The position numbers and the translations under genes are program-made. A model generated the notes under the pieces. It was not told where the DNA came from. It did not search any database and worked only from the letters and a program-made list of their open reading frames with translations. A stretch of 64,000 nt of DNA, from the NCBI GenBank assembly GCA_023411375.1, contig JAEYOW010000050.1:27464-91463 (forward strand). Reading direction: 5' to 3'. This document shows, piece after piece, positions 4,608-37,124 of this stretch (within the stretch, counting starts at the first letter, position 1; each line of letters opens with the position of its first letter). This stretch comes from Bacillota bacterium (GTDB taxonomy: Bacteria > Bacillota > Clostridia > Christensenellales > Aristaeellaceae).

Positions 4608-5279
4608 CTAGATAAAAAGACGCTTCTCCAGCTTTTCACGCAAGGTCGGGCTAAAGGCGAGCGTCAGCAGGAATGTGCCGACGGTCAGAAAGCACACCAT
4701 CACATAGGGGGACCATTGCAAGCCTTCTCCGCCAAAAGTGAAATGAAGAAGCGCCTCCAAAAGCAGCAGGAAAACGCCGACCATCATCCATGATCCACCG
4801 GAAATGGCAAGCGCATGCCGTGGATACCGCTTTACCAGAAACGTCAGCGCCTGCGAAAATAAATACAGCGTGAGAACAATTGGCAGTGCCAGAGTGAGAA
4901 ACCAGCGCCCGCCGGCGATCTGTTCGATCGCCCAGAGATATACGGCCAGCAGACCAAAGTTAAGGGCTCCTGACAGGCATTCCCTCGCCTTTGATACCAG
5001 CAGGGGAAAAATCACCCAGAAGTAAACAAGCACAACCGCGCCCATGACATATACCGACCAGCTCAAGCCGTTGTTTAGTGCCAGATCAGTCGCCAGCACC
5101 ACGGCAATTACATGCAGGCAAAGCGCTAAAAACAGCAGGTTTAAACGAGTTTTGCGGCGCAGCCGCCCGCGGCAGGGAGCGGGGGTTTCCGGCGCGGGCA
5201 TGGGATGAACCGGGGTTTCGCACAGCGGGCACCTGTCTGTTGATTTCATTAACTCCACGCCGCAATGGGCACAATACAT
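4608..5279 (-). CDS. Zinc-ribbon (CxxC...CxxC) N-terminal domain fused to a ~6-TM membrane domain
   Basis: MYCAHCGVELMKSTDRCPLCETPV followed by hydrophobic helices. The ATG at 5279 has GAGGTGA 6 nt upstream and lies 5 nt after the stop of the upstream gene; the GTG at 5288 overlaps that stop. Confidence 0.6.
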   Translation of the reverse strand: MYCAHCGVELMKSTDRCPLCETPVHPMPAPETPAPCRGRLRRKTRLNLLFLALCLHVIAVVLATDLALNNGLSWSVYVMGAVVLVYFWVIFPLLVSKARECLSGALNFGLLAVYLWAIEQIAGGRWFLTLALPIVLTLYLFSQALTFLVKRYPRHALAISGGSWMMVGVFLLLLEALLHFTFGGEGLQWSPYVMVCFLTVGTFLLTLAFSPTLREKLEKRLFI

Positions 5280-5284
5280 CAGCG

Positions 5285-6598
5285 TCACCTCATGTTGCTT
5301 TCCACGCCCGCCTCAAGCCCAAGCCCGCGCAAGACGTTATAAAACGCATATTCCAGCGTTGGTTCCTGGTAACACCGGCAAAACTGCATCCGCACCGTGG
5401 AGGCATAGGAAATCATCGCGCAGCTATTGGCTGATTGGGGATGAGCGTCCATCAGGCACCGAATGTCCCTTATGTATTCGCACATGACATCTGGAAGATC
5501 AATTTCGCCAAGATTTGAAAGGGACAGGCAGCAGTTTCCATTGCCAAAAAGCTGATATGCAGCTTTCATGGCCAGGTTTTTCAGAGGCAGAGGCAGCAGG
5601 CGAACGAGAAGCGAACGTTCGGTTCTGACATTGGTTGCGGCGCATGCGGCCATTTCCTTACGGGTAATGAGCGTGCCCATCTGACATCGAACGGATTGGC
5701 AGATTTCATCAAAATCCCATTCTCCCAGATTGGGATTGATGTTGGCTGTGGGGCACAGCGAGAAGTTCCGTAATGTTTGACTCGGATACAACCTGCGTAG
5801 ATTAACGGGAATGCCAATGGCAATCTCACGCTGCTTGGAACCGGACGCGCGATTTCGCTGGATTTGATAAAGCGCCTGCATCATGGCGGCGCACATAAGC
5901 CCAGTAAGCGTTACGCCGTGCGCCTTTGCGCATGAAAGTGCCTCTTTAAGGGAATATGATAAAATTGTATAAGTCAGGTATTTTTCTTTTGGAAGCGTGT
6001 CTTTTAACTGATAGGCTTTTACCTCGGATCGCTTTTGCGGCCATGGCCCGGCAAATTTGGGAAAACAATCCTCCAGCTCTTCCGCCTTTACCGGCTCGCG
6101 TCTGTCCAGAACGCCTTGCTCGCAGGGAATCGCGATGCCATATTTCTGTGTTAGATATTCTGCGAGAAGGGATTTAAAGAAGGTGATTGAACCGCTTCCG
6201 TCCGACACGGCGTGAAAAAACTCGAGCGACAGGGAAGGCCCGTCAACCAGCACGCGAAAGCCACATCTGCGGATTTCGCGAAAGGAGCGGTGCGTCAGAG
6301 GATAGGCCTTTTCAGCTTCAATGGGCGGTACGGCTACCGTAGGCTCAAAGTAATACCAGAACAGGCCCCGGTGCAATGTGACGGCAATGGACGGAAAGCG
6401 CGGCATGGTGATAGCCAGGGCAGATCTCAAAATGTCCGAATCGACGTTTTCACTCAACGTTGCCGTCCAACGGTATTGATGGTTCTGCGTCCGAGAATAG
6501 GTTGCCGGGTAAATCTTTGCGGCGTTATCAAGCTTAAACCAGGTTCTCTGAGGCGAGGGGGCTAACGGCGCCCGCCCGTTTTCTGCTTCCTCTTTCAT
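5285..6598 (-). CDS. HxxxD-motif acyltransferase of the condensation / alcohol-acetyltransferase (WS-DGAT/PapA5-like) superfamily
   Basis: FFHAVSDGSG (HxxxDG catalytic motif) about 150 aa from the N-terminus, and N-terminal WFKLDNAAKIYPA. Start trimmed to the ATG at 6598 (MKEEAENGR...), which has GGAG in CGAAGGAGAAGAGAG upstream. Confidence 0.65.
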   Translation of the reverse strand: MKEEAENGRAPLAPSPQRTWFKLDNAAKIYPATYSRTQNHQYRWTATLSENVDSDILRSALAITMPRFPSIAVTLHRGLFWYYFEPTVAVPPIEAEKAYPLTHRSFREIRRCGFRVLVDGPSLSLEFFHAVSDGSGSITFFKSLLAEYLTQKYGIAIPCEQGVLDRREPVKAEELEDCFPKFAGPWPQKRSEVKAYQLKDTLPKEKYLTYTILSYSLKEALSCAKAHGVTLTGLMCAAMMQALYQIQRNRASGSKQREIAIGIPVNLRRLYPSQTLRNFSLCPTANINPNLGEWDFDEICQSVRCQMGTLITRKEMAACAATNVRTERSLLVRLLPLPLKNLAMKAAYQLFGNGNCCLSLSNLGEIDLPDVMCEYIRDIRCLMDAHPQSANSCAMISYASTVRMQFCRCYQEPTLEYAFYNVLRGLGLEAGVESNMR

Positions 6599-6845
6599 CT
6601 CTCTTCTCCTTCGCATAAGCCCATATTCATCTGACTCAATCAAAATTGAGAACTGGCAGGATGGCGTGTCCGGCAACCGCTGGGGCATGACGGTCCAACC
6701 CTTATACTGTCAATGGCTGATGCGCATGATCAAATCAACGATTTCCTTTATGCCCTTCTCAGTCATCAGGTCGCTGGCTACGGACAGAATATGCAGCCGC
6801 GTATCCGCCCGCGACTTGACGCCGCTCTCCTCTTTTCCATCCTGT

Positions 6846-6905
6846 CCGCTCATCTGTCTGCCTCCAATCGGTCAACCGACCGAATGGAGGCAGACAGATG
6901 AGCGG
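6846..6905. repeat. Perfect 21-bp inverted repeat (CCGCTCATCTGTCTGCCTCCA / TGGAGGCAGACAGATGAGCGG) with an 18-nt loop that itself holds a TCGGTC/GACCGA palindrome
   Basis: Read directly: arms 6846-6866 and 6885-6905. Each arm carries GGAGG followed 8 nt later by ATG when read outward. Not followed by a U-run on either strand. Confidence 0.9.
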
Positions 6906-7053
6906 ACAATCGTCGCGCGATTCTCAACACAAATTTGCCGGCAAAATAGCATGAGCATCAAGAATGTCAAAAAACCGCAACCCACCAAAAATCATGGGTT
7001 TACGGCTTTTCTACTGCGCCTATCATACCATAAAAAGGATGAAAAGTCAAGTC

Positions 7054-32919: not shown

Positions 32920-33354
32920 ATGAAAAGGTTCCTGTCGCTCGTTTTAGCTCTTGCCGTTGTGCTTTGCTGTCAAAGCGCATTTGCCGCCGTAGCCTTCGAA
33001 AAAAGCGTCATCTACGACTCCATCACCGCTCTTTTTGAAGAAAACTTTACAGACTATGAGCCGGAGTTTGAATACGACGCCGAGAGCTCCGTCTTTATTG
33101 TGAGCCTTGCATCGCCCGACGGTTCCGCGATGGCGTTAATGCTTGAAAATGAAGACAGCCTTACCAGTTGGGAAAGTATGACCGAAAACATGAATAGCAT
33201 AGGCAAATCCGTGATTGAGCTTTTTGAAACGTCGGGGTACGAATCCGTCCATTTTGGACTGATGCTTCGCAGCGACGCCAATGAAGAAAATATCCTGTTC
33301 AGCAGCCTTGATGGCTATACCCTTTATAATGTCACGGACGATTTATCCGACTGA
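32920..33354 (+). CDS. Small secreted protein of unknown function (signal peptide, acidic)
   Basis: MKRFLSLVLALAVVLCCQSAFA followed by an acidic ~120-aa domain. Lower GC than the surroundings. A possible TTGACA-18-ATAATA promoter sits at 32823. Confidence 0.55.
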   Translation: MKRFLSLVLALAVVLCCQSAFAAVAFEKSVIYDSITALFEENFTDYEPEFEYDAESSVFIVSLASPDGSAMALMLENEDSLTSWESMTENMNSIGKSVIELFETSGYESVHFGLMLRSDANEENILFSSLDGYTLYNVTDDLSD

Positions 33355-33422
33355 CCGTAAAAGCGGCGCGACGCATCCGCTGCGCGCGGCGTGCAATGGA
33401 TAGCCATTTGTGAATTGTAAAT

Positions 33423-33469
33423 AAGGGGACGCTTCCGGGCGGCATCTGTCCGCCCGGAAGCGTCCCCTT
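33423..33469. terminator. Bidirectional terminator with a perfect 20-bp stem
   Basis: AAGGGGACGCTTCCGGGCGG-catctgt-CCGCCCGGAAGCGTCCCCTT flanked by A-rich and T-rich tracts. The stop codon of the - strand RHH gene lies inside its 3' arm. Confidence 0.8.
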
Positions 33470-33671
33470 ATTCTTCGTCAATCCGCACCACGTCCAGAGC
33501 GGCCTCAATTAAAAGGTTTATCAGCTCGTTACGTGAGCGGTTGGTTTCCGTCGATAAAGCGTCCAAACGGGCGATTGTTTCATCCCGCATACGCACGGAG
33601 ACAACCTTGTGTCCGTCGTCGCCCCTGCGTGTGCTTTTTTTTGTTATTCTGATCTCCCGCGACAAATGCAT
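33468..33671 (-). CDS. Ribbon-helix-helix (CopG/Arc/MetJ-type) DNA-binding protein
   Basis: ...GHKVVSVRMRDETIARLDALSTETNRSRNELINLLIEAALD... (beta-strand, two helices). The start is uncertain: ATG at 33671 (67 aa) or ATG at 33713 (81 aa), neither with a strong SD. Divergent from the GGDEF gene across an AT-rich region. Confidence 0.6.
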   Translation of the reverse strand: MHLSREIRITKKSTRRGDDGHKVVSVRMRDETIARLDALSTETNRSRNELINLLIEAALDVVRIDEE

Positions 33672-37085: not shown

Positions 37086-37124
37086 AACCCGCCCGCCGTG
37101 CGAAAGCACGGCGGGCGGGTTTTA
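37086..37124. terminator. Strong intrinsic terminator (bidirectional) after pckA
   Basis: AACCCGCCCGCCGTGC-gaaa-GCACGGCGGGCGGGTT followed by TTTT. Confidence 0.85.

What the first reader, a model, noticed from the sequence alone, without database searches (positions are those of the whole stretch)
6710..6905. Perfect 21-bp inverted repeat carrying SD+ATG in both arms, with a 47-aa ORF on the - strand
Arms 6846-6866 and 6885-6905 are exact reverse complements (CCGCTCATCTGTCTGCCTCCA). The 18-nt loop contains its own TCGGTC/GACCGA palindrome. Read outward, each arm has GGAGG and then ATG 8 nt later. The - strand ATG (6853) opens a 47-aa ORF (MSGQDGKEESGVKSRADTRLHILSVASDLMTEKGIKEIVDLIMRISH, 6710-6853), which sits about 110 nt upstream of the acyltransferase and zinc-ribbon operon on the same strand. 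The + strand arm opens only an 18-aa ORF. If transcribed, the hairpin would sequester the SD and start codon, which looks like a translational control device. Alternatively it is a protein-binding cruciform, or a MITE/REP-like remnant. The sequence is unique in this window.
Basis: seen in the sequence. Interest (0 to 1): 0.6.

Follow-up and report, generated by a model that had tools for sequence, protein, structure and literature searches.

The report
Mutated TetR operator beside a dead repressor gene
The long hairpin is a TetR repressor's binding site that a DNA-copying error stretched into a near-perfect 66-bp palindrome, wiping out the gene's promoter, and the 47-aa ORF is what remains of that repressor gene after a 450-bp deletion; it is a well-documented natural example of a known mutation process, not a new control device.

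Summary
The inverted repeat is real and larger than reported. Its arms are 6843-6873 and 6878-6908: 31 nt each, a 4-nt loop and one mismatch. Nearly all other contigs with this version of the locus have no mismatch.

Other gut-metagenome contigs of the same species (98.7-99.97% identical flanks) carry four versions of the locus.
- **A, ancestral:** a sigma-70-type promoter (TTGACA-17-TATGCT), a 32-bp perfect palindrome and a full 197-aa TetR gene. TetR orthologs in other genera have a similar palindrome at the same place, so it is probably the operator.
- **B:** the 66-bp palindrome with an intact TetR gene.
- **C, this window:** the same palindrome plus an in-frame 450-nt deletion in tetR between AAGGAAA repeats. 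That deletion leaves the 47-aa ORF.
- **D:** a 67-nt deletion removes promoter, operator and SD, and TetR carries a W83 stop.

The step from A to B includes eight clustered substitutions. Each one installs the complement of the SD-ATG arm, which is the signature of a replication template switch at a quasipalindrome. The event destroys the promoter.

The dedicated translational-control reading and the MITE/REP reading are not supported. Verdict: a new instance of a known kind, of modest interest.

The parts
6843..6873 (-). ORF-proximal arm of the palindrome. On the minus strand it carries the operator half-site GACCGA, the SD GGAGG (6865-6861), the ATG (6853-6851) and codons 1-4 of the tetR remnant. 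This arm is the original sequence; apart from the window-specific A6867 it is unchanged between alleles.
6874..6877 (.). 4-nt loop (AACC on +, GGTT in ORF orientation). The ancestral centre is GGTT|AACC and half of it is missing here. Contig L028 carries the opposite half, so its loop is flipped.
6878..6908 (-). ORF-distal arm. The inner part (about 6878-6889) is the other operator half. In the outer part (6890-6905) eight substitutions rewrote the former -10 box and promoter spacer into the exact reverse complement of SD..codon 4.
6909..6915 (-). Site of the A>G change (6911) and of the 7-nt loss (GACAGTT, between 6914 and 6915). The 7-nt loss removed most of the ancestral -35 box TTGACA.
6710..6853 (-). 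47-aa remnant of a 197-aa TetR-family repressor (residues 1-37 fused in frame to 188-197). It lacks the DNA-reading helices.
6742..6748 (-). Junction of the 450-nt in-frame deletion. AAGGAAA (TTTCCTT on +) is the 7-nt direct repeat present at both ends of the deleted segment in the full-length allele.
6943..6970 (-). Upstream promoter-like site (TTGACA-16-TATTTT with TG) present in all alleles. It is the nearest candidate source of a transcript that would contain the hairpin.
5285..6598 (-). Downstream acyltransferase-like gene (437 aa), intact in all alleles. It was presumably co-transcribed with tetR in the ancestral arrangement (inference).
4608..5288 (-). DUF6320 zinc-ribbon membrane protein, the conserved partner of the acyltransferase-like gene.

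Best explanation
The palindrome is the operator region of an autoregulated TetR-family repressor gene, enlarged by a replication template switch at a quasipalindrome.

In the ancestral allele a promoter (TTGACA-17-TATGCT) sits directly upstream of a 32-bp perfect palindrome, which is followed by the SD and ATG. The stretch further out was already 11/14 complementary to the SD-spacer and first codons.

The inferred event runs as follows. A nascent strand (the window's + strand, growing towards higher coordinates) folded back on the operator palindrome. It copied itself for about 16-20 nt and then returned to its template. This overwrote the -10 box and promoter spacer with the exact reverse complement of SD..ATG..codon 4.

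Three smaller changes accompany it: a 7-nt loss in the -35 box, a 4-nt loss at the centre and one A>G substitution. Together they give the 31+4+31 structure.

The result is loss of the tetR promoter. In any read-through transcript the tetR SD and AUG would be locked in a stem of about -64 to -67 kcal/mol, so tetR was probably silenced (inference). An allele with the new palindrome and an intact tetR still exists. In the window's lineage the unexpressed gene then lost 450 nt by slippage between AAGGAAA repeats, leaving the 47-aa ORF.

The palindrome is therefore best read as a mutational product. The sequestered SD+ATG is a side effect, not an evolved control device.
For: **Same locus, same species.**
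- Flanks are 98.7-99.97% identical to the window.
- Outside 6867-6914, L026 differs from the window at only 3 of about 1,030 upstream positions and 11 of 2,290 downstream positions.

**Full-length allele.**
- L026 and L027 come from two independent samples and encode a 197-aa TetR (TetR_N E = 7.8e-15, residues 22-65).
- The protein cluster holding the full-length forms is carried on about 85 contigs. The 47-aa forms are on about 24 contigs.

**Promoter.**
- The promoter TTGACA-17-TATGCT scores 10/12 in L026.
- It is absent from L035 and from the window.

**Operator.**
- TetR orthologs of 61-66% identity in Sedimentibacter, Desulfitobacterium sp. LBE and an unnamed lineage carry TCGGTCGG-N4-CCGACYGA-like or TCGGTCAGTTGACCGA palindromes.
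- As read from the upstream sequences printed, these lie between promoter-like hexamers and the SD.

**Symmetry.**
- Ancestral: 16/16 inner positions paired, then 0/5, then 11/14 outer (binomial P = 4e-5).
- Derived: 31/31.
- All 8 substitutions install the complementary base. The chance of that is (1/3)^8 = 1.5e-4.

**Order of events.** L035 has the extended palindrome with an intact 197-aa TetR.

**Deletion junction.** The 7-nt microhomology AAGGAAA sits at both ends.

**Known mechanism.**
- Template switching makes quasipalindromes perfect (PMC7202029).
- It homogenises IR arms and inverts spacers (PMC8604942).
- It expands IRs at transcription-factor sites in promoters (PMC13100816).
- It creates RNA hairpins in one step (PMC8794818).
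Against: - The 4-nt central loss, the 7-nt loss and the A>G at 6911 are not produced by the single fold-back event. They need extra steps, so the history is more than one event.
- No expression data exist. Silencing of tetR in allele B, and co-transcription with the acyltransferase-like gene, are inferences.
- The palindrome stays perfect in nearly all of the 13 contigs that carry it. This fits a recent origin but equally fits selection or continued self-correction.
- TetR binding to the palindrome is inferred from position and conservation only.
Confidence: 0.8

Rival explanations
1. Adaptive regulatory rewiring. Removal of the operator-proximal promoter and of TetR was selected in gut strains, and more than once, to change expression of the acyltransferase-like/DUF6320 pair or of other TetR targets. 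In the new arrangement the long hairpin acts as a functional RNA element, for example as an RNase III site or a stabiliser or roadblock in the leader of the downstream operon.
For: - Two different ORF-killing lesions exist in the same species: the 450-nt deletion and W83stop.
- The promoter region carries different lesions in the two lineages: palindrome extension versus a 67-nt deletion.
- The downstream genes remain intact in all alleles.
- The palindrome is kept perfect in most contigs.
- An upstream promoter-like site could still transcribe through it.
Against: - A palindromic operator is itself a mutational hotspot for both template switching and deletion between flanking repeats, so recurrence does not require selection.
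- Allele D may even descend from allele B; GAC repeats would give the same junction.
- Loss of the promoter is the opposite of what selection for derepression would favour.
- There are no expression data.
- No second operator copy was found in the 64-kb window.
Confidence: 0.13
2. A dedicated translational control hairpin for a real small protein of 47 aa. The stem hides the SD and AUG until a signal or an RNase opens it.
For: - A strong SD with 7-nt spacing to the ATG, both inside a stem of -64 kcal/mol.
- Gene callers call the ORF in 24 contigs.
Against: - The ORF is an in-frame deletion product of a 197-aa TetR and lacks the HTH.
- Apart from two near-identical 47-aa variants from this species, sequence searches of 5.8 and 1.8 billion proteins return no credible relative; the only other hits are two unrelated repeat proteins.
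- The hairpin also exists in front of the intact 197-aa gene (L035) and is absent from the majority allele.
- A perfect 31-bp stem has no obvious alternative fold that could open it.
Confidence: 0.03
3. A DNA-level protein-binding site that is still in use. The candidates are an operator for a paralogous TetR, or a cruciform bound or cut by a structure-specific protein.
For: - The core TCGGTC-GGTT-GACCGA matches 15 of 16 positions of the palindrome TCGGTCAGTTGACCGA seen upstream of a 64%-identical ortholog.
- 31-bp arms with a 4-nt loop can extrude as a cruciform.
- Six of 13 contigs with the palindrome end in it or within about 20 nt of it.
Against: - The cognate TetR is destroyed in this allele.
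- The outer 15 bp per arm are newly templated sequence with no counterpart in orthologs.
- A 66-bp palindrome is longer than the usual largest de Bruijn k-mer of 55, so contig ends there are expected from the assembler alone (inference).
Confidence: 0.04
4. A dispersed repeat (MITE/REP-like) or an assembly artefact.
For: None beyond the hairpin shape and the contig ends at the site.
Against: - The arm is unique in the window.
- The metagenome scan found the arm only at this locus, and the viral scan found none.
- No Rfam family reaches its gathering score; the only matches are generic miRNA-hairpin models well below threshold.
- The palindrome lies inside contigs with distinct flanks in at least 7 independent assemblies made with different assemblers.
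Confidence: 0.01

Closest known systems
Quasipalindrome-associated template-switch mutations (Ripley model; E. coli lacZ QP reporters, PMC7202029)
   Same: An imperfect inverted repeat becomes perfect in one arm only. The change is a cluster of substitutions that all copy the other arm, and the flanks are untouched.
   Different: This is a natural polymorphism in an uncultured gut bacterium, not a reporter assay. The tract is long (8 substitutions over 16 nt). It is accompanied by three small changes that the model does not produce.
Template-switch IR expansion at transcription-factor sites in promoters (yeast GRE2/ERT1, PMC13100816), and arm homogenisation with spacer inversion (PMC8604942)
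   Same: An inverted repeat at a dimeric regulator's binding site grows by template switching. One contig (L028) has the loop in the opposite orientation, as in the reported spacer inversions.
   Different: This is a bacterial case. The expansion overwrites the -10 box and mirrors the SD and start codon. It is followed by decay of the regulator gene itself.
Template switching that creates RNA hairpins in one step (PMC8794818)
   Same: A long perfect stem appears without intermediate steps.
   Different: There is no evidence here that the resulting RNA hairpin has acquired a function.
TetR-family autoregulated operons with a palindromic operator between the -10 box and the SD (general knowledge of the family, e.g. 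TetR/tetO and QacR/IR1; recalled, not tested here)
   Same: The ancestral allele shows the expected layout: promoter, dyad-symmetric operator, SD, a tetR gene with a TetR_N domain, then downstream gene(s).
   Different: In the window the repressor is truncated to 47 aa and the promoter is gone. Binding has not been shown for any allele.
Palindrome-stimulated deletion between flanking direct repeats (classical slipped-mispairing model; recalled)
   Same: Allele D removes the whole palindrome between GACAG repeats, or between GAC repeats if it descends from allele B.
   Different: This allele is not in the window. It is seen only in related contigs.

Membership tests
TetR-family transcriptional regulator (the 47-aa ORF) | N-terminal helix-turn-helix domain (Pfam TetR_N, PF00440) | tested here: not met
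   The window ORF has no Pfam hit even at E <= 10. The full-length allele matches TetR_N at residues 22-65 with E = 7.8e-15. The remnant keeps only residues 1-37, that is helix 1.
TetR-family transcriptional regulator (the 47-aa ORF) | C-terminal ligand-binding and dimerisation domain | tested here: not met
   Residues 38-187 are deleted. In the full-length allele TetR_C_6 falls just below its Pfam cut-off (25.8 vs 27 bits).
TetR-family transcriptional regulator (the 47-aa ORF) | Descent from a TetR gene | tested here: met
   Nucleotide alignment to the full-length alleles differs only by the 450-nt gap and a single SNP (window 6810).
TetR operator | Dyad-symmetric site overlapping or just downstream of the regulated promoter | tested here: met
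   In the ancestral allele a 32-bp perfect palindrome starts at the end of the -10 hexamer TATGCT and overlaps its last two bases.
TetR operator | Conservation of the site upstream of orthologous regulators | tested here: met
   TCGGTC/GACCGA-type palindromes lie just upstream of the SD, downstream of promoter-like hexamers, in L029, L030-32 and L033-34. The sample is only three lineages.
TetR operator | Binding by the repressor | not testable with these tools
   Needs EMSA or footprinting.
Quasipalindrome template-switch mutation | A pre-existing imperfect inverted repeat in the parental sequence | tested here: met
   16/16 inner plus 11/14 outer complementarity in L026.
Quasipalindrome template-switch mutation | Clustered changes confined to one arm, each converting a mismatch to the complement of the other arm | tested here: met
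   8 of 8 substitutions, all in 6890-6905. The other arm is unchanged.
Quasipalindrome template-switch mutation | All local differences explained by a single switch and return | tested here: not met
   The 7-nt loss, the 4-nt central loss and the A>G at 6911 need further events.
Quasipalindrome template-switch mutation | Direct observation of the event during replication | not testable with these tools
   The event is historical. It could be modelled with a reporter carrying the ancestral sequence.
Intrinsic (Rho-independent) terminator | GC-rich hairpin followed by a U-run | tested here: not met
   The terminator scan does not report the site on either strand. The stem is followed by GGAUGGAAAAG on the minus strand and AUCGUCGCG on the + strand.
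REP / MITE-like dispersed repeat | Many dispersed copies in the genome | tested here: not met
   Unique in the 64-kb window. Only this locus in the metagenome scan. None in viral contigs. A complete genome was not available.
Curated RNA family (Rfam) | Score at or above a family's gathering threshold | tested here: not met
   Only generic miRNA-hairpin models, at 20-40 bits against thresholds of 52-150.
SD-occluding leader hairpin / RNase III-type dsRNA substrate | SD and AUG base-paired in a stable stem of 20 bp or more in the transcript | tested here: met
   A predicted 31-bp stem of -63.9 to -67.8 kcal/mol includes GGAGG and AUG. This is structural only.
SD-occluding leader hairpin / RNase III-type dsRNA substrate | Transcription through the site, and regulated opening or cleavage | not testable with these tools
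   Needs RNA-seq, 5'-end mapping and an rnc mutant.

The most novel reading that the evidence does not exclude
The TetR/promoter module has been knocked out repeatedly in human-gut strains of this species because loss is advantageous. On this reading the operator palindrome works as a built-in mutational fuse: its own symmetry makes promoter-killing template switches and deletions frequent. The resulting 31-bp RNA hairpin has then been co-opted as a processing or stability element for the acyltransferase-like/DUF6320 transcript.
Probability: 0.12. Interest if true: 0.55.

Novelty: new member of a known kind. Interest (0 to 1): 0.3.

Why it matters
The case shows how a striking "designed-looking" hairpin with a mirrored SD and start codon can arise in one mutational step from an ordinary operator. 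Annotators should therefore not read every such structure as a riboregulator.

The locus preserves the ancestral allele, an intermediate and two end states in public metagenomes. That makes it a clean natural record of template-switch mutagenesis, palindrome-associated deletion and later pseudogenisation of a repressor in an uncultured gut bacterium.

It also offers a natural experiment. Strains with alleles A-D could show what this TetR and the uncharacterised acyltransferase-like/DUF6320 pair do.

Tried and rejected
**Searches with the 47-aa peptide alone**
- Pfam at E <= 10, PDB sequences, BLASTP against the window's other TetR (1790-2521), a word-indexed search of 5.8 billion proteins and a phmmer search of 1.8 billion representatives all failed to give a TetR link.
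- The phmmer search returned two unrelated repeat proteins (P0242, P0243), which I disregard.
- The TetR link came only from the DNA-pattern scan of metagenome contigs.

**Searches for related loci**
- The GTDB species-representative scan with the acyltransferase-like protein found only relatives of 33% identity or less.
- Closer relatives of that protein (56-65% identity; L020-L025) keep the DUF6320 partner but have no TetR or palindrome upstream, so they say nothing about the palindrome's history.

**RNA families:** Rfam gave only sub-threshold miRNA-hairpin matches.

**Ideas tested and dropped**
- *Terminator:* no U-run follows the stem.
- *Other operator copies:* none in the window.
- *Register slippage on the CGGT tandem repeat as the cause of the 4-nt central loss:* the observed junctions do not fit any repeat-mediated deletion, judged by hand from the sequences.
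- *Reverse direction of evolution (perfect palindrome ancestral):* rejected for three reasons.
  - The upstream arm mirrors coding sequence.
  - Orthologs have the promoter-plus-short-operator layout.
  - Eight independent substitutions recreating a 10/12 promoter are implausible.

Full report
**1.

The 21-nt arms at 6846-6866 and 6885-6905 are exact reverse complements. The 21-mer has no other match in the window with up to 3 mismatches, and none is expected by chance.

The repeat finder extends the arms to 6843-6873 and 6878-6908. That gives 31 nt per arm, one mismatch (A6867 opposite A6884) and a 4-nt loop.
- As DNA the hairpin folds at -39.4 kcal/mol, z = -14.
- As minus-strand RNA it folds at -63.9 kcal/mol, with GGAGG (6865-6861) and AUG (6853-6851) inside the stem.

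The 47-aa ORF (6853-6710) and the 111-nt gap to the acyltransferase-like gene are as described. No Rfam family reaches its threshold. The site is not terminator-like.

**2. The peptide alone gave nothing; the DNA gave the answer**

Five searches with the 47-aa peptide found no TetR relationship: Pfam, PDB sequences, BLASTP against the window's other TetR, and two very large protein searches.

The exact 47-aa product is encoded on 24 metagenome contigs with the same gene order. In all ten contigs read from that look-up the position matching the window's mismatch pairs normally; nine have a fully perfect palindrome, and L005 has a different single mismatch.

A scan of metagenome contigs for the ORF-side arm found one contig, L026, that matched on one strand only. 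L026 is the same locus, but the ORF there continues as ...EKGIKETSLKDIAKRAGISQGTLYYYY..., a 197-aa protein. It matches TetR_N at residues 22-65 with E = 7.8e-15.

Alignment shows that the window's ORF is this gene minus 450 nt, in frame, between two AAGGAAA repeats. It keeps residues 1-37 and 188-197 and has no helix-turn-helix.

**3. Four alleles of one locus in one species**

Flanks are 98.7-99.97% identical to the window.

| Allele | Contigs read | Upstream region | tetR |
|---|---|---|---|
| A | L026, L027 (independent samples) | promoter TTGACA-17-TATGCT (10/12), then the perfect palindrome CTCCATTCGGTCGGTT\|AACCGACCGAATGGAG, then SD and ATG | full length, 197 aa |
| B | L035; L036 starts inside the palindrome | 31+4+31 palindrome, promoter absent | full length, 197 aa |
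| C | window, L001-L010, L028 | same palindrome | 450-nt in-frame deletion, 47 aa |
| D | L037-L041, including NCBI MAG GCA_902493005.1 | 67-nt deletion removes promoter, palindrome and SD; junction GCGCGACAG\|ATGAGC | W83stop, 82 aa |

Contig counts from the protein clusters are as follows.
- Full-length forms: about 85 contigs. Three of these carry the R15 variant linked to allele B.
- The 47-aa forms: about 24 contigs.
- The 82-aa form: 6-9 contigs.

**4. The inner palindrome is probably the TetR operator**

TetR orthologs of 61-66% identity occur in Sedimentibacter, Desulfitobacterium sp. LBE and an unnamed lineage. In the upstream sequences read each has a related palindrome just upstream of its SD, downstream of promoter-like hexamers where these are visible:
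- GTCGG-CCAA-CCGAC
- TCGGTCAGTTGACCGA
- TCGGTCGG-CTGG-CCGACTGA

No other copy occurs in the window. Binding itself is an inference.

**5. How the palindrome grew**

Outside 6867-6914, L026 differs from the window at 3 of about 1,030 upstream positions. Inside that stretch lie these changes:
- a 7-nt loss (GACAGTT, between GAC repeats) that removes most of the -35 box;
- one A>G substitution at 6911;
- eight substitutions within 16 nt (6890-6905);
- a 4-nt loss at the centre;
- the window-specific A6867.

The symmetry table shows the pattern.
- The ancestral sequence pairs at 16/16 inner positions, 0/5 next, and 11/14 further out (P = 4e-5).
- The derived sequence pairs at 31/31.
- All eight substitutions install the complement of the unchanged SD-ATG arm; the chance of that is 1.5e-4.

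This is the signature of a quasipalindrome template switch. A nascent strand folds back on the perfect inner palindrome, copies itself and returns where outer complementarity resumes. Working through the strands, the nascent strand was the window's + strand growing towards higher coordinates, or equivalently a cross-fork switch (inference).

The mechanism and its outcomes are documented in the literature:
- perfecting of quasipalindromes (PMC7202029);
- arm homogenisation and spacer inversion (PMC8604942);
- IR expansion at transcription-factor sites in promoters (PMC13100816);
- one-step creation of RNA hairpins (PMC8794818).

L028 carries the same arms with the loop in the opposite orientation, AACC instead of GGTT in ORF orientation. 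Two histories fit: a spacer inversion, or an independent loss of the other half of the ancestral GGTT|AACC centre.

**6. Order of events and consequences**

Allele B shows that the palindrome extension came before the 450-nt deletion.

The extension removes the operator-proximal promoter. Any read-through transcript from the upstream promoter-like site at 6970-6943 would have the tetR SD and AUG in a stem of -64 to -67 kcal/mol.

I infer that tetR was silenced and then decayed. The mirrored SD+ATG and the 18-aa ORF on the + strand are by-products of the inverted copy.

Allele D is a second route to the same end state: a palindrome-associated deletion between short direct repeats plus a nonsense mutation. 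Its junction can be derived from A (GACAG repeats) or from B (GAC repeats), so the independence of the promoter lesions is likely but not proven. The two ORF lesions are independent.

**7. Rivals**

- **Selected rewiring.** This remains possible at about 0.13. It is supported by recurrent loss, intact downstream genes and a palindrome kept perfect. However, palindromic operators are mutational hotspots anyway, and promoter loss is not what selection for derepression predicts.
- **Dedicated control hairpin for a real 47-aa protein.** Unlikely. Apart from its own near-identical variants the ORF has no credible relative, it lacks the HTH, and the hairpin also precedes the intact gene.
- **Dispersed repeat or assembly artefact.** Excluded by uniqueness and by presence inside contigs from many independent assemblies.

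**8. What remains unexplained**

- The 4-nt central loss has no microhomology.
- The A>G at 6911 is not accounted for.
- The ancestral outer 11/14 complementarity has no known origin.
- Six of 13 contigs with the extended palindrome end in or near it, against none of 7 with alleles A or D. I attribute this to de Bruijn graph ambiguity or a coverage drop at a 66-bp palindrome, but real fragility is not excluded.

**9. Verdict**

The feature is real. It is explained as a TetR operator enlarged by template-switch mutation, next to the in-frame remnant of its repressor gene. It is a new and unusually well-documented instance of a known mutational process, not a new regulatory system. Interest is modest.

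Noticed in passing
L037-L041 (e.g. L037:2300-2760; NCBI MAG GCA_902493005.1, contig CABUNW010000001.1): A fourth allele of the same locus. A 67-nt deletion between GACAG repeats removes promoter, operator and SD, and the TetR carries a W83 stop (82 aa). This is a second, different inactivation of the same repressor in the species.
   Followed up: partly
L005, L006, L007, L009, L010, L036 (contig starts) versus window 6843-6908: Six of 13 contigs carrying the 66-bp palindrome end inside it or within about 20 nt of it. None of the 7 contigs with the short-palindrome or deleted alleles does. This is probably an assembler or coverage effect of the palindrome, but real fragility is not excluded.
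   Followed up: partly
L028:1253-1318: Same 31-nt arms, but the 4-nt loop is in the opposite orientation (AACC rather than GGTT in ORF orientation). Either the spacer inverted or the other half of the ancestral centre was lost independently.
   Followed up: partly
window 33420-33472: A second perfect hairpin: 23-nt arms, 100% complementary, 7-nt loop (AATAAGGGGACGCTTCCGGGCGG). It lies 66 nt after the + strand ORF 32920-33354 and has A-rich and T-rich ends. It looks like a bidirectional terminator.
   Followed up: no
window 37086-37121: A perfect 16-nt-arm hairpin with a 4-nt loop (AACCCGCCCGCCGTGC / GCACGGCGGGCGGGTT), near the end of long ORFs on both strands.
   Followed up: no
L029, L030-L032, L033-L034 versus window 4608-6853: Orthologs of this TetR (61-66% identity) sit in front of Fe-alcohol dehydrogenase and aldehyde dehydrogenase genes. 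Here the TetR precedes an acyltransferase-like/DUF6320 pair. In relatives (L020-L025) that pair has no TetR upstream, so the regulator and the operon seem to have been joined recently.
   Followed up: partly
window 6979-7050 (minus strand): A strong promoter-like site (TTGACT-17-TATGAT with TG, 7050-7022) is followed within about 25 nt by a weak terminator-like hairpin with a T-run (7000-6979). That hairpin abuts the next promoter-like site. The whole stretch overlaps the divergent promoter-like site of the DUF6323 operon and is identical in all alleles.
   Followed up: no
window 5285-6598: The GTDB species-representative collection holds no genome with a close copy of the acyltransferase-like gene (best 33% identity), although the species is common in human-gut metagenomes and one NCBI MAG carries the locus. 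The organism could not be named here; the nearest labelled relatives are 'Eubacteriales bacterium' MAGs.
   Followed up: no
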